From Mobula hypostoma (Eukaryota), in assembly GCF_963921235.1 (NCBI RefSeq), contig NC_086097.1, forward strand, positions 136,278,001 to 136,342,000: DNA of 64,000 nt. Reading direction: 5' to 3'. The notes under the pieces were generated by a model, which saw only the letters and a program-made list of their open reading frames with translations, searched no databases and was not told the origin of the DNA. Below are positions 42,290-54,980 of this stretch, one piece after another. The translations under genes were made by a program, and so were the position numbers. The number at the start of each line of letters is the position of its first letter. Positions within the stretch are counted from its first letter, which is position 1.

Positions 42290-43410
42290 GATAGACTGGA
42301 TGGGCTGGGGCTATTTTCCCTGGAGTAAAGGAGGTTGAGGGATGAAATTATAGAGATTCATAAAATCCTGAGGGACAAAGATAAGGCGAATTGTTACAGT
42401 TCTTTTTCCCCCAAGGTAATGGAGTCAAAAACTAGGGAAGCATAGATTTAAGGAGGGAAGGGAAAGACTCAATGGGGATCTAAAGGGCAACCTTCTCAGA
42501 GTGAGAATGATGCATACATGGAGTGAGCTGTCAGAGGTGGATACAATTGCAATGTTCAAAAGACATTAGACTGGTTCATAGTTAGATTAGATTAGATTAT
42601 GAGGACACTCGGTCCTCGTTCATTGTCATTTAGAAATGCATGCATTAAAAAATGATACAATGTTCCTCCAGAATGATGTCACAAGAAACACAGGACAAAC
42701 CAAGACTAAACTAACAAAACCGCATAATTATAATATATAGTTACAACAGTGCAAAGCAATACCATAATTTGATAAAGAGCAGACCATGGGCACGGTAAAA
42801 AAAAGTCTCAAAGTTCCGATAGCCTCATCATCTCACGCAGACGGTAGAAGGGAGAAACTCTCCCTGCCATGAACCTCCAAGTGCCGCAAACTTGCCGATG
42901 CTGCACCATTGGAAGCACCCAACCGCAGCCGACTCTGAGTCTGTCAAAAAACTTCGAGCCTCCGACCAGCCCTCCGACACTGAGCACCGAGCACCATCTC
43001 TGCTGAGCGCTTCGACCCCGCCCCTGGCCGCCGAGCAACAAGCAAAGCCGAGGACTCGAGGCCGTCCCCTCCAGAGATTCTGGATCACACAGTAGCGGCG
43101 GTAGCGAAGCAGGCATTTCAGAAGTTTCACCAGATGTTCCTCCGTGCTCTCACATCTGCCTCCATCAAATCAGGATTGTGCACAGCACCCTACTTGACAG
43201 ATAACAGACATCACCACCGGAGTGGCTGCTGCGAGCTGCGTCGCGCCGTCATCTTCTCCTCCCACCGTTGAAAAGTTAGGTGAGGTTTAGAGTGGTACAG
43301 GCCAAATGCAAGCAAATGGGACTAGCCCAGATGGACACTTTGGTTAGCACGGGATGAATTGGGCTGAAGGGCCTGTTTCCATGTTGTATAACTCTGGGGC
43401 TCTCTGACTC
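42290..43410 (+). mobile_element. Degraded CR1 3' end interrupted by the 680-bp retroposon
   Basis: CR1 3' sequence lies on both sides of 42581-43263. Confidence 0.7.
42581..43263 (-). mobile_element. About 680-bp non-autonomous retroposon, copy 2
   Basis: Reverse complement of 17790-18472. (TTAGA)n at the left end and catcttctcctccc at the right end. Confidence 0.85.
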
Positions 43411-44970: not shown

Positions 44971-45635
44971 AAAGCTGTCCTTGAGCTTTGTGGTACATGT
45001 TCTTAAGCTTTTCTGTCTTCTGCCTGACAGGACTGCAGACGGAGGTGCCCTTGATTGTGGTGAATATTTTGACTTTGATTGTGTCGGATCAATTTTTCTG
45101 GAAGGGCAAGAGCACAGGAAGGGATAGGCCAGTCAGCCCCTCTAGCCCTACTACCCCATTCAATAAGAACATTGCTGATCCTGTGCCTGAATCCAAACCC
45201 ACCTGATCTTCAAATACTCTGATCCTTGAGCCTCTAAACCTGCATCAGTCCCAGTCCTGAATGTACACATTACTCTGAGGTCCACCAGTTGAAATGAAGT
45301 ATAATGGCAACATCCACTATTAAAGATCCCCATCTTCCAGGCCATGCCATCTCCTTGCAACTACCACTGGGCAGGAGGTACAGAATCCTGAAGTCCCATG
45401 CCATAATTACTTCCTTTCAACCATTTGGTTGTTGAACCAACTGGCACAACCCTAATCACAAGGGTTTAGCTACACTATGACTGTTTTGATCACTTTGCAG
45501 TAAAATGGATTTTTAAAAATATTCTAATTCTGGTCTTTCTTCTAAAGTTTATGTATAATATATGTTTAATGTTCTTGCAAATGCTGCTTATATGATGCTA
45601 TGTGTCTGTAATGCTGTCTAATTTTTTCATCTGTG

Positions 45636-46310
45636 TGTAAGGAGTTTTTTCTTTTATGTTACTGCGAAGGCTAACAAAATGCTTCTTTGTTATGTTATAA
45701 TTAAAATGGCTTTTCTGTAATAATAACTGCGATGTAGGGAGTTCTCTCTCTCTCTGCTTGTTTGGGTTATATTATTGATAAGAGGAAGAATGAACCAATT
45801 GGGATAGATGTTACTCTTTCTTGTGTGTCTGTAAGCTCTTGTTTTCGCGGGCGTTGAGGCAGAAGGCGCGATGGGGACAGAGAGAGTGGACACGATGCTG
45901 TAAGCTGGCCGACGGGACGGACCCCGAGCGGGAGTCCGAGGCCCAGGGTCTTCGGCGAGGAGAGGAGACAAGAACAGACTTGTGTGGAGCGTCTGGTCAA
46001 CCACCATGGTTGGTCCCAGGCAGCGGGTCAAGGGGGCAGGGGATCGAATGGTGGAAAGGAGACTTCGCTACTTGAACTTTGATAAGTTTGGCACCTTTTA
46101 TTTTCCTTTCATATTTTAACTCTATTAATTACATAGTTCCAGTAAAATCTATAAAGTGTAATCATTTAATCGCATATGGTGTATTGTCTGTTATTTGGCG
46201 GGATCACACAGCATCCACACAAACTTGATTACCCAGTTTGGCGGGGCCGAAGGATGCTCCCCCTTGACGAAAGCGAGTTGAGTCAGCCTGAGGCTTACCA
46301 GGGAGCTACA
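45636..46310 (+). repeat. 5' LTR (675 bp)
   Basis: Direct repeat of 48873-49577 with TG...CA ends. Lacks an approximately 30-bp segment present in the 3' LTR. Confidence 0.95.
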
Positions 46311-46312
46311 TT

Positions 46313-46331
46313 TGGGGGCTTTGTCCGAGAC
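46313..46331 (+). promoter_or_regulatory. Primer-binding site, tRNA-Pro-like
   Basis: TGGGGGCTTTGTCCGAGAC, 2 nt after the LTR end, resembles the tRNA-Pro PBS TGGGGGCTCGTCCGGGAT. Confidence 0.75.
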
Positions 46332-46355
46332 TGGATTCAGTGGGGTGCTGTGTGA

Positions 46356-47174
46356 TTGCCCTGTTTAAATCGGTGCTGCTGTGTCTCTGTGGGATTGCGG
46401 TTAGTAATGTGTGTCTCTGTGGGATTGCTGGTTATTGCTGCATGCGTGTTGGGTGGGGTGGCTGTTGGTACCCCGGAGGTCTTTGTTCGAGTTCAGACGA
46501 GTGCTGACGAGTTGGTGGTGGGACTGCCAGTGTCTATTTGTGCCCCAGGTGAGGTGGGGCCATGGGCTGTCCATACCGTTAGGAGAGAGAGGAAAGAGTG
46601 GTCTGATTCGGAGGTAGAGTCTGTGAATAAATGTTCCAGCTATGGCAGGCTCCGCCTGGCTTTTGGGATATTGTCCACCCCTAAATGGGCGGAGGCGTAC
46701 GAGACATGGGCGGAGCGGATCTCTCAGTTAGATGAGTGGCAGTGCTCGGTTGAGGGAGAGCGACAGGGATTGGTTGAAAGTTTGAGTAGGCGGGCTGTTG
46801 ATGGTGTTAGAACTGTCAGGTTCAATTACACCATAGTGACAGCTGCCAGTTATCTGAAAGCAGGGGAAAATGCGTCTGGTTCGACTGGAAGAAAAATGCA
46901 GCGCCTGGGGGGCTTTCCATACCTGTGTCAGGAGATTGGGGAAAAGCTTTCAGTGTATCTTCTCTGGCTAGGAGGGCAGCTAATTTGCTTGCAGTGCCAG
47001 GGGGATCATTTAAGGGGATCTGCCTCCCCCTCAGTCGTTCAGCTGATCAGAGAGGTGTCGGGAAACTTTGTGGAGGCCCAGTGGGGGAACGGTTTGGGGT
47101 CTCTGGGGCAGCACGTTCCCAGCAATGTACCAAGGAACTTCCGAAAGGAAAAGATCCTATTCCTGAAGGCTTAG
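46356..47174 (+). pseudogene. Gypsy gag remnant (PNMA-type capsid)
   Basis: YGRLRLAFG...YETWAERISQLDEWQCS...LVESL, plus MHR-like [11 protein letters not shown]. Confidence 0.8.
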
Positions 47175-47175
47175 A

Positions 47176-47400
47176 GGGACCACGCCCCCGTGTGTTGTTA
47201 CGGATAGATGGAAGCTATGCTAAAGCCATCCTCGACACTGGGGAGCAGGTCAAGTTGTCAGTTCATTTTACAACTGGTTTCTGAAGCATTTACCCTTGAC
47301 AACATTAAAGGCACTGGAGATTTGGGGTACCAGTGCCAGTGATTATCCAGAAGACGATTATTGGTCAGTGAAACTGGAGTTCATGGGGGCGTTGTCTGTG
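47176..47400 (+). pseudogene. Gypsy aspartic protease remnant
   Basis: [25 protein letters not shown] contains the LDTG catalytic motif. Frameshifted downstream. Confidence 0.8.
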
Positions 47401-47604
47401 CACCCAGTGTTTCGAGCTGCTTGTCTGGACTTGTGTAGCAGCCTTGGGCCGGTACTGAGTTTAAATGAGAGCCGATTGTGGTACGGCCTGGGGGAAGTAT
47501 CTGAGGGTCAGACCCTCTTAGTAGACACTCCGAAATACCACGAGGGAGGGGAGTTGACTGCTGAAGACACTTCGGTGAGAGAGAGGTTGGAGTGACTGTA
47601 CCCT

Positions 47605-48597
47605 GTGGTCGTGGAAGACGTAGGCATCGTGTGTGTGAATTATAGGACTTTGAACAGGCGCACTGTCATTGACCAGAATACGGCCCTGAGGGCCAAAGAC
47701 GCAATGGTCTGTCTGAATGGTGTGAGGTGGTTTGATGTGCTGGATCTGAGGAGTGGATGTTGCCAGAACACAATGAGTGAGGTCGACAAGGAGAAGACGG
47801 CCATTATAGGTCCCCTAGGATTCTTCCGATCCAAAAAGATGCCACAGGGCATATCCGGATCCCCTGCAACCTTCCTGAGGGGCATGGGTAAGACCATGGG
47901 GGATGTGGAGGTGTTTGGAGTTTTGGCGTATGTGGATGATTGCTTAGGGTTTGGATTCGCCTTGGGGGACGATGATGTGAGGCGAGTGCCGGAGCCCCGG
48001 ACAACCAATGAAGACTTGGAGTTCACGCTCGTCAAAGTGCAGACAGGGAAACAGAATTCCAAGCTGAAACTGTGGTCATGTAATGATGAATTAATCCAGA
48101 GAGATGAAACAATGACCAGCCTTCAAAAGGATGAGCAGAAACTCAAGACATCGATCCAGAACAGATTGGAAGAAGCTGGTGGTGTAACTGCATCCCAGAT
48201 GGAGATGGACATGAAGCGTGGGTCAGAACTGCTGAGACTGGGGCGAGAGTTGGAGGAGTCAGAGAAGAGGCTGACGTCTCGACTGCAGGAGGCTGAAGAG
48301 ACTGCAGAGGCAGCCCAGGCTAAGTGCTTCAGTTTGGAGAAAATCAAACAGCAGCTACCGATCGAGAGAATGTGGAAGAATATGGCATCGAAGGATGATG
48401 TGCGGGATGTGTGGTACATGCTGCCTCTTGCTAACTTCTCCTTGATTGAGGAACAGACCGTTCGCCCTTCCCTCACTGAGTCAGGTGCAGTGGGGAGGTC
48501 TGGCTGTGGGCAGCCTGGGTTACAGCAGGACTCTGAAGGAAAAGAAGCGGGGCCCCGGACACGGGACAGGGGGCTCCAAGTTGCAGTGGGGACATGA
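47605..48597 (+). pseudogene. Chimeric ORF: partial Gypsy RT, then myosin-rod coiled coil, then Gypsy pol tail
   Basis: RT motifs CVNYRTLN, LDLRSG, KEKTA, MPQG and YVDD (47929-47940). Myosin-like peptides follow from about 47984 to 48366. No RNase H or integrase motifs. Confidence 0.85.
47984..48366 (+). pseudogene. Captured sarcomeric myosin heavy-chain (class II) rod fragments
   Basis: DLEFTLVKV..K...K....E....DET...L.K resembles MYH [63 protein letters not shown].RELEE resembles [59 protein letters not shown].L resembles [37 protein letters not shown]. MYH sequences are quoted from memory. Confidence 0.88.
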
Positions 48598-48859
48598 GTG
48601 AGAGATTGAGAGAGGAGTTGGCAAGCAGATCCGAGGTATCCCCAGTAGTGTCTGAGCCTGAAGGGATTAGGTGAGGGGGTATGGAGGTCTCAGAGGATTA
48701 GGAAACTCCCAGATAGGTTGGCCTATGTAGCGCCCATGGAACAGGGCGTAAGGTCCACTGTTTGGTGAGCAATGTGACTGTTTATACCTGGATTGGGTTT
48801 TTGTGTCTGCCGGAAGGGTTAGCGAGTTACTTAGAAGTCATGAGGACAGGACTTTATTT

Positions 48860-48872
48860 GGTGGGGAGAGAG
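48860..48872 (+). promoter_or_regulatory. Polypurine tract
   Basis: GGTGGGGAGAGAG immediately precedes the 3' LTR. Confidence 0.85.
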
Positions 48873-49577
48873 TGTAAGGGGTTTCTTCTTTTATGTTACT
48901 GCGAAGGCTAACAAAATGGCTTTTTGTTATGTTATAATTAAAATGGCTTTTCTGTAATAATAACTGAGAAGTAAGTTCTCTCTCTCTCTCTGCTTGTTTG
49001 GGTTATATTATTGATAAGAAAAGAATGAACCAATTGGGATAAATGTTACTCTTTCTTGTGTGTCTGTAAGCTCTTGTTTTCGCGGGCATTGAGGCAGAAG
49101 GCGCGATGGAGACAGAGAAAGGAGACGCGATGCTGTAAGCTGGCCGATGGGACGGACCCCGAGCGGGAGTCCGAGGCCCAGGGTCTTTGGCGAGGAGAGG
49201 AGATGAGGACAGACTCGTGTGGAGTGTCTGATCGACAGCCGTGGTTGGTCCCAGGCGGCAGGTCAAGGGGGTCGGAGGGGATCGCATGGTGGAAAGGAGA
49301 CTCCGTTCCTTGAGCTCTAACTGTTGTGCACGAAGTCGTTGAACTTTGATAAGTTTGGCGCTTTTTATTTTCCTTTTATATTTTATCTCTCTTAACTACA
49401 TAGTTCCAGTAAGATCTATAAAGTGTAATCATTTAATCACATATGGCGTATTGTCTGTTATTTGGCAGGATCACATGGCATCCACACACACTTGATTACC
49501 CAGTTTGGTGGGGTGGAAGTCTGCTCCCCGTAGACAAAAGGGAGTTGAGTGAGCCTGAGGCTTACCAGGAAGCTACA
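48873..49577 (+). repeat. 3' LTR (705 bp)
   Basis: Direct repeat of 45636-46310, ending AGCTACA and followed by TGTG. Confidence 0.95.
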
Positions 49578-50899
49578 TGTGCATTCATGTGCTTGTGCAT
49601 ATGACAACAAATTTTACTCTGGTTCTTCCCCCCCACCAACAATTGCTGCCTGACTTGGAGGGTATTTCCACCATTTTCTGCTTTTACTCATGACTGATGG
49701 AGAAAGTGAATCTTATTGAATTTAGTTTGTGAGCTGAGGAAAGCCAAAGGAAAGAGACACTTGCTTCTCTTTTCTCCTTATAGAGGGATGGAGATGAGGT
49801 ACCTGTCTGAGTTCAAACTAATAGCCTCGACACCTCTTGAGTAGGACAGCTTAGTGAGAACTCTACCGCAGGGAAATGGCTCAAGAATATTCCTCCATGA
49901 GGTAGGAGGAACCATTGAAAGACTAATGGCAGCTGATACACTAGACCCCCTCCAGCTGGCTGGGTCTGTGAGATGGAACAACACAATATTCTTATGCCTT
50001 TTTCTGCAGTCTGTGGGAGGGACTTTCCAGGCTGAGTTCCAACAAGCCTCAAGGCTCTCAATGTTATGTCATTAACTAAGCCCTTTGTTTCAGAAGATTC
50101 TCTTGAGTCTGACGCTCACATAATAAAGTATATTAGCATCTTAGATGCTCACGGGAGCCCACGTAAAAAAAAATCTGGGCCCGGTTGTTGAAGCTGTGGT
50201 TTCCACTCTGCAATTATCTCAGCTATAGTGTTTCGTTACATGTGAAATGGTCCAAAGTGAATGCTGGGCTTTCATTGGAAAGATTGTTTAAGCGTGAGTA
50301 ATTCCACTTCGCACTGCATCATCAAAAGGTCAGAGAAGGAATAAGGAATTTTTTTCATGGAACTTTCCCATTTTAACGTCCTATGGCAATCCAAACTGTG
50401 AAGTGGGTTCACTACCGTCACATTGAATCTTGTGAGCAATTTTTGCACAGTGTGTTGACAGTAACTTGTTAGTGATGACGTGAGGAGTAGGGACTGCCCT
50501 GGACATATAGAAAGTTTAGATTATTTTATTGTTATATTCACCAGGGTGCAATGAAATTCCTAGCTCGCTTGAAGCCCAGAGTAAACAGATACTTAGTAAA
50601 ATTAACAATAGGTCTGATGATAAGTGCAAGACGGCAGAATGGTGCAACTATTGTGGGTCACTCTGAAGCACACAGAGCAGGGAACAATAGAGCACAGGAA
50701 ATAGCCCTTCAGCCCAGGATGTTGTGCCTAACTAATTAAGGGAAAGATGCCTAATTACAGTAATCCTTTCCATGGTCCACACCTCTCTGTTCTTTGCATA
50801 TTCAAGTACCTACCTAAGAGCCTCTTAAAGGTCTCCATCGTATCTGCCTGTATTCCAGGCCCCCAAAGAAATGCTGAAGTGACGATAATGGATTACGAA

Positions 50900-52760
50900 G
50901 TCCAAAGTTCAAAGGAAGTTCATTATCAAAGTACACATATGTCACCATGTGCAACCTTGAGATTCATTTTCTTGTGGGCTTACTCAGTAAATCCAAGAGC
51001 CGTGATAGAATCAACAAAGGACTGCATATAATAAGACGGACAGGGAACTAATGTGCAAAAGACAACAAACAGTTCAAATGCAAAATAAAAAAATAGTAAT
51101 TTTAAAAAAACAATAAATATGGAGAACATGAGATGAAGAGTCCTTGAAAGTCAGTCCATAGATTGTGGGAACAGTTCAGTGATGAGACAAGTGCCACTGT
51201 GTGAAGATATGCCCTCTGGTTGAAGGGCATGGTGATTCAGGGGTAATAAGTTTCCCTGAACCTGGTGGTGCAAGTCTTGACACTTCTCTACCTTCTTTTT
51301 GATGGCAGCAGCGAGCAGGGGCCGTGACCTGGTGATGGGGGTCCCTGAAGATGGATGCGGCCTTCTTGCGACCCCACTCCATGTAGATGTGCTCAGTGGT
51401 GGGGGAGGGCTTTACCCATGGTGAACTGGGCCGAATCTATTACTTTTTGTAGGATTTTCCGTTCAAGGGCATTGGTGTTTCCATACCAGGCTGTGATGCA
51501 ACCAATGAATATACTCTCCACCACACATCTATAGAAGTTTGTCAAAGTTTTAGATGTCATGCTGAATCCTCGTCAACTTTTAAGGACATGGAGGCACTGT
51601 TGTGCTTTCTTCATAATTGTACCTATGTGCTGGGCCCAGGACAGATACTCTGCAATGATAACACTGAGGAATTTAAAGTTGCTGACCCTCTCTACCTCTG
51701 ATCCCCCAATGAGGACTGGCTCATGGACCTACGGTTTCCTTCTGAAGTGAATATTCAGCTCCTTGTTTTTAATGAATTTTTTTTAGATTATGAAGACACG
51801 TAGTCCTCTCTTATTGTCATTTAGTAATGCATGCATTAAGAAATGATACAATATTTTCTCCGGTGTGATATCACAAAACACAGGACAGACCAAGACTGAA
51901 AAAACTCCTGACAAAACCACGTAATTATAACATATAGTTACAACAGTGCAACAATACCATAACTTGATGAAGAAGTCCATGAGCACAGTAAAGTTCAAAG
52001 TCTCTCAAATGTCCCACATCTCACACAGACAGGAGAAGGAAGAAAAACTCTCCCTGCCATGCCGACCACAATCCGACTCTAGGTCATCTGAAAACTTCGA
52101 GCTCTGATCAGCTCTCCGACACCGAGTACTGAGCACCATCTCTGTCCAAACGATTCAACCTCCTTCTCGGTCGCCAAAAGCAGGCAAGGCCGGGGATTTT
52201 GAGGCCTACCCTCCGAAAGATTCCCGACCACGCAGTAATGACAGCAGCGAACGAGCGTTTCAGAAATTTCTCCAGATGTTCCTTTGTGCTTTCAAGTCCA
52301 TTCTCCATCAAATCAGAATTGTCCACGGCCCCTATTTAACAGATAAGATATCATTTTTCACCGGAGGGCTGCGCACGCGCAGGTGCGCTGTCATCTTCTC
52401 CTCCCGAATTTAAGAGAGAAGTTGTTGTTGGGGCACCGCTCAGCCAGATTTTCCCTCCTATATGCTGATTCAGCCAACTACAGTGACGTCATCAGCAAAC
52501 ATAAATATGGCATTAGAGCTGTGCTTAGCCAAACAATCATAAAGTGAGTGGACCGAGGGCTAAGCACACAGCCTTGTGGTGCAGCTGTGCTGATGGAAAT
52601 TGTAGAGGAGATGTCGCTGCCAATCCAAACTGACTGAGGTCTGCAATTGGGGAAATTGAGGACCCAATTGCAGAAAGAGATATTGAGGCCAAGGTCTTGA
52701 AACTTATTGATTAGTTTTGAGGGGATATAATATTGAATGCTGATCTATAGTCAATTAACT
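50900..52760 (-). mobile_element. Rex1/L2-type LINE 3' part, interrupted by the 680-bp retroposon
   Basis: caaagttcaaa tail and KAASIFRDPHH in ORF 51176-51382. RT-like sequence resumes after 52411. Confidence 0.75.
51783..52405 (-). mobile_element. About 620-bp non-autonomous retroposon, copy 3 (divergent subfamily)
   Basis: Same head (catcttctcctccc) and tail architecture as copies 1 and 2. Flanked by a GAATTT direct repeat. Confidence 0.8.
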
Positions 52761-53334: not shown

Positions 53335-53527
53335 AAAGGTGGGAGAGCGGAAACCAAATTGGATGACAACTAACCAATCAGGAAGGATGAACAATCTGGT
53401 GTAAATAACTGCAGAACAGACATGCCCCATGCAATATCCCTGATGAAGATGGCAAAGATTGTCATCGAAATATTAGTTAAAATTGATACCTGTAATGGCT
53501 GGAGGCCCCAGAAGAATTTATAAGAAG
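53335..53527 (+). mobile_element. Penelope-like element terminal fragment with a hammerhead motif
   Basis: CCAATCA...CTGATGA-A-GATGGCAA-aga-TTGTCATC-GAAA at 53440-53470, with an 8-bp stem II. Confidence 0.65.
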
Positions 53528-53624
53528 ATGTGCGGTGCACTTCTGCTATCAGTCCTTTGCCTCGGAGAATGAATGAGGCCCACATTTAATATCTCAATTT
53601 GCAGGAAGCACCTCAACAGTCATA

Positions 53625-54980
53625 CACCCTCCATACTGCTCCCACAATGTGACACACATTCAGCACCACCTCTCCCACGGTGTGATTCGCCCTCAGTACT
53701 GTCCCTCCCACAGTGTGACACTCCCTCAGTACTGTCCATCTCACAGCGTGACACTCCCTCAGTACTGTCTGTCCCACAGCGTGACACTCCCTCAGTACTG
53801 TCCATCCCACAGTTTGACACTCCCTGTACTGTCCATCCCACAGTGTGACACTCCCTCAGTACTGTCCATCCAACAGTGCGACCCTCCCTCAGTCCTGTCC
53901 ATCCCACAGAGTGACACTCCCTCAGTACCGTCCATCCCACAGTGTGACACTCTCTCAGTACCGTCCATCCCACAGTGTGACACTCCCTCAGTACTGTCCA
54001 TCCCACAGTTTGACACTCCCTGTACTGTCCATCCCACAGTGTGACACTCCCTCAGTACTGTCCATCCAACAGTGCGACCCTTCCTCAGTCCTGTCCATCC
54101 CACAGTGTGACACTCTGTCAGTACTGTCCATCCCACAGTGTGACACTCCCTCAGTACTGTCCATCATACTGTGTGACACTCCCTCAGTACCCTCCATTCC
54201 ACAGTGTGACACTCTCTCAGTACTGTCCATCCCACAGTGTGACACTCTCTCAGTACTGTCCATCCCACTGTGTGACACTCCCTCAGTACTGTCCATCCCA
54301 CAGCGTGACACTCTCTCAGTACTGTCCATCCCACAGTGTGAGACTCCCTCAGTACTGTCCATCTCTCAGTGTGAGACTCCCTCAGTACTGTCCATCCCAC
54401 AGTGTGACACTCCCTCAGTACTGTCCATCCCACAGTGTGACAGTCCCTCAGTACTGTCCATCCCACAGTGTGACACTCTCTCAGTACTGTCCATTCCACA
54501 GTGTGACAGTCCCTCAGTACTGTCCATCCCACAGTGTGACACTCTCTCAGTACTGTCTATCCCCCAGTGTGACACTCCCTCAGTACCGTCCATCCCACAG
54601 TGTGACACTCCCTCAGTACCGTCCACACACAGTGTGACACCCCCTCAGTACTGTCCATCCCACAGTGTGACACTCCCTCAGTACCGTCCATTCCACAGTG
54701 TGACACACTCTCAGTACTGTCCATCCCACAGTGTGACACTCCCTCAGTACTGTCCATCCCGCAGTGTGACACTCTCTCAGTACTGTCCATCCCACAGTGT
54801 GACACTCTCTCAGTACTGCCCGTCAGACAATGTGACACCCCCTCAGTACTGCCCGTCACACAGTGTGACACCCCCTCAGTACTGTCCGTCCCACAGTGTG
54901 ACATTCCCTCAGTACTGCCCGTCACACAGTGTGACACTCCCTCAGTACTGCCCGTCACACAGTGTGACACTCCCTCAGTA
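53625..54980. repeat. 33-bp minisatellite, about 40 units
   Basis: Unit CACAGTGTGACACTCCCTCAGTACTGTCCATCC. It produces 11-aa periodic ORFs on both strands. Confidence 0.97.

What the first reader, a model, noticed from the sequence alone, without database searches (positions are those of the whole stretch)
47929..48366. Gypsy LTR element has captured myosin heavy-chain rod sequence in place of RNase H and integrase
Seen: about 15 codons after the RT YVDD motif the sequence stops being RT and becomes about 125 codons of coiled coil. It then returns to Gypsy-like tail sequence, with RSQRIRKLPDRLAY at about 48683-48725, then the PPT and 3' LTR. Knowledge: the peptides match recognisable class II sarcomeric myosin rod motifs ([43 protein letters not shown].K). 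ELLRL.RELEE and EAEETAEAAQA look closer to the MYH16/MYH7B group than to fast skeletal MYH, judged from memory. Inference: the cargo lies between intact LTRs with a clean TGTG TSD, so the chimera integrated as a unit. That would be retrovirus-style transduction of a host muscle gene by a non-autonomous element, possibly a multi-copy family.
Basis: partly seen in the sequence, partly recalled or inferred. Interest (0 to 1): 0.92.

Follow-up and report, generated by a model that had tools for sequence, protein, structure and literature searches.

The report
Ray retrotransposon carrying captured myosin rod
This is one dead copy of a very abundant crippled jumping gene of rays that long ago swallowed an intron-free piece of a host myosin messenger RNA and spread it around the genome, and the host gene it came from looks like an unusual myosin that has a tail but no motor.

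Summary
Confirmed. A 3.94-kb Gypsy element (LTRs 92% identical, TGTG TSD) carries 47999-48366, three collinear myosin-rod pieces in frame with a truncated RT. It belongs to a family: 40 of 40 scored hits share the junction (1056 candidates), a longer-cargo subfamily exists, TSDs differ between loci, and Mobula proteins and other organisms' runs hold it.

Two corrections. (1) Less-deleted copies show the myosin replaced about 55 bp of the RNase H-integrase linker, upstream of an integrase-deletion scar shared with cargo-free sisters; RNase H was lost later. (2) The donor is not MYH16 itself but a second, diverged MYH16-clade gene (C68:14.52-14.74 Mb; 87-96% DNA identity, four introns removed; a whale-shark exon 93% identical). 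Three searches found no motor exon for it but did for 15 other class II loci; its first rod exon has an in-frame ATG extension in CpG-rich DNA, so it may be motor-less.

The cargo looks like a passenger (dN/dS near neutral; frame cut off from gag). A Copia-type element independently captured a non-muscle myosin. The mechanism is known (LTR-mediated retroposition), and this scan found the family three times before on other DNA.

The parts
45632..45635 (+). left target-site duplication TGTG
45636..46310 (+). 5' LTR (TG...CA)
   Evidence: 92% identical to the 3' LTR
46311..46330 (+). degenerate primer-binding site (tRNA-Pro type; assignment recalled, not tested)
   Evidence: same position in other copies
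46356..47174 (+). gag remnant, PNMA-like; zinc-knuckle region deleted and the junction to pol is out of frame
   Evidence: Pfam PNMA E 4e-10; anchor spacing 119 nt in 20 of 27 short-cargo and 12 of 15 long-cargo copies; a relative has gag-pol as one frame
47153..47634 (+). protease and linker remnants with internal deletions
47635..47998 (+). truncated reverse transcriptase, YVDD at 47929
   Evidence: Pfam RVT_1 E 1.7e-7
47999..48173 (+). myosin rod piece 1 (about residues 947-1005); first 56 nt are 87.5% identical to the donor's first rod exon
48163..48258 (+). myosin rod piece 2 (residues 1141-1173); donor exon-exon junction at 48198/48199, 2.7-kb intron absent
   Evidence: 89% to both donor exons
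48259..48366 (+). myosin rod piece 3 (residues about 1378-1416)
   Evidence: the same piece of copy L071 is 96% identical to donor exon C68:14707348-14707448, its best non-self hit
48364..48381 (+). end of the RNase H-integrase linker and the integrase-deletion scar (at 48378/48379)
48379..48859 (+). post-integrase Gypsy tail, with the RSQRIRKLPDRLAY motif at 48685-48726
   Evidence: matches the tail of integrase-bearing relative L097
48860..48872 (+). polypurine tract
48873..49577 (+). 3' LTR (TG...CA)
49578..49581 (+). right target-site duplication TGTG

Best explanation
A non-autonomous Gypsy lineage that had lost its integrase co-packaged a spliced host mRNA from a diverged MYH16-clade gene. 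Reverse transcriptase switched template onto the mRNA and back, and about 530 codons' span of rod sequence (residues 885-1416) replaced about 55 bp of the RNase H-integrase linker. The chimera kept LTRs, primer site and polypurine tract and was copied in trans by integrase-bearing relatives. Further microhomology deletions produced nested subfamilies; two of them amplified to hundreds of copies or more. The window copy is the most deleted type. The myosin is a passenger and the copies now decay. Shown: structure, splicing, donor locus, junction positions, multiple insertions, nested deletions. Inferred: template switching, mobilisation in trans, capture after integrase loss, germ-line expression of the donor, lack of function.
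For: Family: 40 of 40 scored matches cover the RT-myosin-tail stretch at 90-100% (1056 candidates); 30 of 30 fetched copies show the fusion; the longer-cargo type gave 148 matches from 141 scored of 1325 candidates. TSDs: 14 copies examined, 10 readable, 6 exact and 4 with 3 of 4 bases, all different (read by eye). Splicing: four successive donor introns (3.0, 35.7, 12.4, 2.7 kb) are absent at their GT-AG borders in less-deleted copies. Donor: best of 8 host myosin loci in 52 of 52 copies, mean 0.87-0.95 against 0.73-0.76 for the MYH16 orthologue. The 5' junction has a 12-of-13-nt match between Gypsy linker and donor exon, and deletion junctions overlap by 4-11 nt, as Tan et al. 2016 describe (PMC5131818, passages). 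Order: the same integrase scar is in cargo copies and in 2 of 2 cargo-free sisters that reach it, while 7 of 10 relatives sampled continue into the pre-integrase linker at that point. Passenger: net dN/dS between subfamilies is 0.33-1.17 on the cargo, 0.44-1.51 on RT and 1.04-1.66 on the tail; the cargo frame is out of frame with gag, and 35 of 44 copies measured have no Met upstream of the protease anchor in that frame.
Against: The frame from protease remnant to tail is open in the source elements of both big subfamilies: no stop is shared by more than 30% of copies in 470 and 443 codon columns, against about 3.2 expected (P about 0.04), and modal spacings are multiples of three. That is more order than a pure passenger needs, although microhomologies are themselves in frame 40-60% of the time and more often in myosin, and some copies were found by protein search. 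A tail tree does not place cargo-free copies outside cargo-bearing ones, so the order of events rests on the scar alone. Integrase was verified by Pfam only in L097; the 7 linker relatives were not read as far as integrase. Donor exons for residues 962-1024 were not located (40 of 763 scored).
Confidence: 0.8

Rival explanations
1. The fused frame (protease/RT remnant, coiled coil, tail) was translated and helped the element, for example as a scaffold or by protecting its RNA from decay; selection acted on an open frame rather than on residues.
For: No fixed stop in either subfamily (P about 0.04); in-frame modal spacings across the cargo junctions in 26-28 of 29 and 16-20 of 18-20 copies; the cargo survived several deletions that removed RNase H and parts of RT; piece 2+3 has the lowest ratios (0.40-0.55 within subfamilies, 0.33-0.45 against the least-deleted type).
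Against: The gag-pol junction is out of frame and most copies lack an upstream Met; RT and tail give similar ratios, uncorrected for transition bias; catalytic domains are ruined; earlier notes of this scan report unrelated cargos (SUDS3, USP35, RBM25) in the same genome, so myosin is not singled out (unchecked).
Confidence: 0.12
3. A locus-specific retrocopy insertion or an assembly chimera.
For: None found.
Against: Identical junctions at 40 of 40 scored loci on many contigs; no poly-A or own TSD at the cargo edges; contigs from 3 of 4 runs laid bridge the RT-myosin junction; related fusions are annotated in two Mobula species.
Confidence: 0.01

Closest known systems
LTR-mediated retrocopies of animals (Tan et al. 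2016, PMC5131818; passages)
   Same: Partial spliced mRNA between LTRs, part of the internal region replaced, microsimilarity at the switch points, sense orientation, often in frame, further rounds of retroposition as non-autonomous elements.
   Different: The passages read describe single young retrocopies. Here the chimera amplified to at least about 180 verified loci and over 1000 candidates, left a nested deletion series, and is old (LTR pairs differ by 5-13%).
Crocodilian ERVs with captured KIT-ligand and nectin3 mRNA (PMC4299795; passages)
   Same: Old vertebrate LTR elements that multiplied with a captured host mRNA; deletion derivatives exist.
   Different: Those are retroviral, have 6-9 copies and near-complete cargo under purifying selection. 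This one is Gypsy, far more numerous, and its cargo is fragmentary and near neutral.
Drosophila myosin rod protein and molluscan catchin (PMC3912159; passages) - for the donor gene
   Same: Myosin rod without motor; the Drosophila protein starts by a 5' extension of the first exon after the motor and light-chain region, the arrangement seen at the donor's first rod exon.
   Different: Those are alternative transcripts of a full Mhc gene in invertebrates. The donor would be a separate vertebrate gene that lost its head exons; its transcript start is not shown.
GalEa-like Copia elements (PMC3587641; passages) - for the second capture
   Same: LTR of about 190 bp with TG...CA and a primer site matching 11 of 12 bases of the GalEa site.
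   Different: No RT, RNase H or integrase was seen in the copies read, so clade membership was not tested by phylogeny; they carry spliced non-muscle myosin rod.

Membership tests
Ty3/Gypsy LTR retrotransposon | Paired LTRs with TG...CA, primer site, polypurine tract, short TSD | tested here: met
   4-bp TSD
Ty3/Gypsy LTR retrotransposon | Domain order gag-PR-RT-RH-IN | tested here: met
   gag-PR-RT in the window; RNase H in L082 and integrase after RNase H in relative L097. The window copy itself lacks RH and IN.
Ty3/Gypsy LTR retrotransposon | Placement in a named Gypsy clade by RT phylogeny | not tested
   no reference RT set held
LTR-mediated retrocopy (Tan et al. 2016) | Cargo is spliced host mRNA | tested here: met
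   four donor introns absent; one junction retained in the window copy
LTR-mediated retrocopy (Tan et al. 2016) | Internal LTR-element sequence replaced, with microsimilarity at the switch points | tested here: met
   about 55 bp replaced; 12 of 13 nt at the 5' switch; the 3' switch was placed only to a few bases
LTR-mediated retrocopy (Tan et al. 2016) | No poly-A tail or own TSD on the cargo; further retroposition | tested here: met
MYH16 orthologue (as donor) | Cargo closest to the locus that groups with shark MYH16 | tested here: not met
   C36:112.7 Mb groups with Chiloscyllium myosin-16-like (87/66) but is second best in DNA; C68:14.66 Mb is best in 52 of 52 copies
MYH16 clade (donor) | Falls on the MYH16 side of the sarcomeric tree and shares the split exon structure | tested here: met
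   96/100 split on 113 residues, long branch; same exon split as C36
Class II myosin heavy chain (donor) | Motor domain and neck | tested here: not met
   no hit near the locus (98 of 276 candidates scored; 108 of 155; 65 of 487, stricter first look), while the conserved motor exon is found at 15 other class II loci; an assembly gap is not excluded
Motor-less myosin rod gene (donor) | Transcript starts at the first rod exon | not testable with these tools
   in-frame ATG 20 codons upstream and CpG o/e 1.28 in the 138 bp upstream against 0.25-0.33 in introns; the ancestral acceptor AG is also still there
Copia / GalEa (second element) | Short LTR, 5-bp TSD, GalEa-type primer site | tested here: met
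   L051: TSD CAATG, LTR about 190 bp, primer site 11 of 12
Copia / GalEa (second element) | Integrase before RT; RT phylogeny | not tested
   no such domains in the copies read; Pfam gave no gag or protease hit

The most novel reading that the evidence does not exclude
The donor is an undescribed motor-less MYH16 paralogue conserved between rays and whale shark: a stand-alone vertebrate counterpart of the invertebrate myosin rod protein, catchin or paramyosin. It starts at a CpG island on the first rod exon and is expressed in the germ line or early embryo, which is how a Gypsy element could capture it and spread it to more than a thousand loci.
Probability: 0.5. Interest if true: 0.8.

Novelty: new variant of a known kind. 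Interest (0 to 1): 0.6.

Why it matters
It is an unusually complete record of retrovirus-style gene capture in a vertebrate germ line: the cargo-free sister, the least-deleted chimera, nested derivatives, the donor and integrase-bearing relatives are all in one genome, so the order of events and the forces on captured sequence can be measured on hundreds of copies. The copies also contaminate annotation: one Mobula copy is named 'myosin heavy chain, skeletal muscle-like'. The cargo points to a host gene that may be a vertebrate motor-less myosin rod, which my searches did not find described; that would be of real interest to muscle and cytoskeleton biology and is easy to test.

Tried and rejected
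Donor = fast skeletal, MYH7-like or MYH7B-like genes: rejected, mean DNA identity 0.64-0.73. Donor = MYH16 orthologue at C36: rejected.

'All deletions are in frame, so the whole element is one selected ORF': rejected; the gag-pol deletion is out of frame and one linker piece is read in a frame other than the relative's.

Purifying selection on the cargo: not shown (14 short-cargo, 12 long-cargo and 5 least-deleted copies of the 55 held; Nei-Gojobori, no transition correction).

Protein databases for the donor: one search returned no full myosin for the long cargo; (148-2000 residues) returned nothing above 65% identity among the 120 of 2002 hits listed, which is unexplained if the gene is annotated in rays; one search gave one close hit, a single whale-shark exon prediction. 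The ESM Atlas gave only generic myosin-like clusters. A 75-bp query missed the donor's first rod exon that a 217-bp query then found, so negative genome searches need care.

The tail tree was unresolved. The identity list at the end is offset by one residue for database proteins and was not used. Expression: no RNA holder listed; runs X11 and X20 are only guessed to be RNA. Run X20 covered 11 of 30 bins only. The DNA between the donor's exons and upstream of them was mostly not read, so a gap there is untested.

Literature: no paper for myosin with retrotransposon in shark or batoid (0 hits); the Mobula genome preprint 10.64898/2026.10.27.761883 has no occurrence of 'myosin' in its main text (passages; supplements not seen). 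Passages of PMC11050549, PMC6402096 and 10.1101/2025.10.28.684953 (supplements with its gene list not seen) did not mention a second shark MYH16.

Full report
OBSERVATION. The window holds a 3,942-bp LTR element at 45636-49577 with TG...CA LTRs that differ at 54 of 668 aligned bases and a TGTG duplication on both sides. Inside are a PNMA-like gag remnant and an RT remnant (Pfam E 4e-10 and 1.7e-7). After YVDD (47929) RT-like sequence continues to about 47998; 47999-48366 is myosin rod in the same frame; then comes the Gypsy tail, the polypurine tract and the 3' LTR. All 10 PDB hits of the cargo are class II myosin chains or a MYH7 chimera, and 100 shuffles score at most 34 bits against 55 for the real cargo. 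The cargo is three collinear pieces, about residues 947-1005, 1141-1173 and 1378-1413 of a shark myosin-16-like protein.

FAMILY. A DNA search of the own genome (3.48 Gb, 200 contigs) with the junction region gave 1056 candidates; all 40 scored cover it nearly end to end at 90-100%, and 30 of 30 fetched copies show the same fusion. Five related fusions are annotated in Mobula hypostoma and M. birostris, one named as a myosin heavy chain. One of these retrieved a second subfamily with a longer cargo: 148 matches from 141 scored of 1325 candidates. Rarer, less-deleted copies (L071, L072, L077-L079) turned up. Verified loci are thus about 180 or more; candidates suggest over a thousand. Of 14 copies whose ends I examined, 10 were readable: 6 have an exact 4-bp TSD, 4 match at 3 of 4 bases, and all differ; LTR pairs differ by 5-13% in 12 fetched copies and 8% in the window. 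No rate was measured, so I give no date; slow shark and ray rates (recalled) would make this tens of millions of years. Public runs with six organism labels and a skin metagenome hold part of the words; contigs of 3 of 4 runs laid (X6, X10, X11) bridge the RT-myosin junction. Ray ancestry of the genome is inferred from the Mobula hits.

ORDER OF EVENTS. In L072 and L077-L079 RNase H is present and the cargo begins just after it, at residue about 885. Two cargo-free sisters (L080, L082) run RNase H, linker, tail with no integrase. In 7 of 10 further relatives the same linker continues as in L096 and L097, where integrase follows (Pfam for L097); the other 3 are of the L097 subtype. The last linker codons before the integrase deletion lie downstream of the myosin in cargo copies, and the scar is the same as in the cargo-free sisters. 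So the myosin replaced only about 55 bp of linker in a lineage that lacked integrase, and the window's subfamily lost RNase H and most of the cargo later. The 5' switch has a 12-of-13-nt match between linker and donor exon; later deletions overlap by 4-11 nt. A tail tree of 20 rows did not resolve the order independently.

DONOR. A search with a host exon found two genes with a split exon structure, at C36:112.7 Mb and C68:14.66 Mb. Over a 96-nt exon junction, 52 of 52 copies are closest to C68:14.66 among 8 host loci. Less-deleted copies match its exons at 80-96%, mostly above 88%, and lack four successive introns of 3.0, 35.7, 12.4 and 2.7 kb exactly at GT-AG borders. All three window pieces trace to this locus. 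Exons for residues 962-1024 were not located. On 113 residues the C36 gene groups with shark MYH16, and the donor falls on the MYH16 side on a long branch. Its rod exons run from 14,524,968 to 14,737,159 in order; the eight exons I read have no stop. A whale-shark prediction is 93% identical to one exon, which argues for a conserved gene.

Three searches for motor and neck exons found none near the donor, while the most conserved motor exon was found at 15 other class II loci. Upstream of the first rod exon the frame stays open to an ATG 20 codons away, in DNA with CpG o/e 1.28 against 0.25-0.33 in the introns read. Drosophila myosin rod protein starts in this way (PMC3912159, passages). Against this: the ancestral acceptor AG is still in place; only part of the candidates were scored in each search; one short DNA query missed an exon that is present; another donor exon is also CpG-rich (0.83); I could not read the upstream DNA for gaps; and no full-length orthologue appeared. 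I put the motor-less reading at about 0.5-0.6, and germ-line expression is inference.

FUNCTION OF THE CARGO. Net dN/dS between subfamilies is 0.33-1.17 on the cargo and 0.44-1.66 on RT and tail, with no clear purifying signal. Yet neither big subfamily has a shared stop in about 450 codons (3.2 expected, P about 0.04), and junction spacings are modally in frame. Microhomologies alone are in frame 40-60% of the time. The frame is also cut off from gag: a relative has gag-pol as one frame, the deletion here shifts it, and 35 of 44 copies have no Met upstream of the protease anchor. A passenger is the best reading; a translated chimera is a minority rival.

SECOND CAPTURE. The myosin-tail search exposed an unrelated element (no DNA match to this one) that carries four joined exons of the non-muscle myosin at C45:100.2 Mb at 82-92%. 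L051 has LTRs of about 190 bp, a 5-bp TSD and a primer site like that of GalEa Copia elements. Six of 40 scored hits span its junction, two pairs of them near-duplicates, and two or three further loci carry the cargo. I found it because I searched for myosin, and earlier notes of this scan report SUDS3, USP35, RBM25 and RNF213 cargos in the same genome (unchecked), so two myosin captures do not show a preference.

COMPARISON AND NOVELTY. It works like, and meets the tested features of, LTR-mediated retroposition (Tan et al. 2016, PMC5131818, passages); crocodilian ERV captures are the nearest old vertebrate case (PMC4299795, passages). What differs is the scale of amplification and the preserved series of intermediates. 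Searches found no paper on this family, and searches none on a second or motor-less shark MYH16; subscription journals and preprint supplements were not seen. This scan reported the family three times before on other DNA; those notes say integrase was swapped for the cargo or name MYH16 as donor, which my junction and identity data correct. Verdict: real, new variant of a known kind, interest 0.6; 0.8 if the donor proves motor-less.

Noticed in passing
G000:C68:14524968-14737159 (L111, L110, L109, L069, L070, L076): Second MYH16-clade gene with a full series of rod exons, very long introns and no detectable motor exons; in-frame ATG extension in CpG-rich DNA at the first rod exon; whale-shark exon 93% identical.
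   Followed up: partly
L051 (G000:C18:48.745 Mb), L052-L055, L058, L066: Copia/GalEa-type LTR element carrying spliced non-muscle myosin rod from C45:100.2 Mb; about 7-9 loci, 77-81% alike; L058 has an inverted piece of the cargo.
   Followed up: partly
L080, L082 and one search hits: Cargo-free, integrase-deleted Gypsy family related to the element; many copies.
   Followed up: partly
L096:1780-2800, L097:1780-2450: Integrase-bearing relatives have a 33-bp tandem array in the post-integrase tail that keeps all three frames open for long stretches.
   Followed up: no
G000:C68:15.30-15.91 Mb: Tandem cluster of eight fast-type myosin heavy chain genes, plus fragments at 15.78 and 16.03 Mb; two genes (15.46, 15.53 Mb) give identical scores.
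   Followed up: no
G000:C149:137169 and C148:350598: 43-bp matches (88%) to one donor exon on two small contigs; possible extra fragments of donor or element.
   Followed up: no
window 53511-54828: Tandem array of a 33-bp unit, 38 overlapping copies reported, giving long low-complexity open frames on both strands.
   Followed up: no
window 42571-43290 and 51762-52400: Two copies, 79-91% alike in pieces, of a repeat of about 700 bp, 9.2 kb apart, one on each side of the element.
   Followed up: no
P0009, P0010 (Natator depressus): Predicted proteins made of tandem repeats of one myosin rod exon; probably an annotation or assembly artefact.
   Followed up: no
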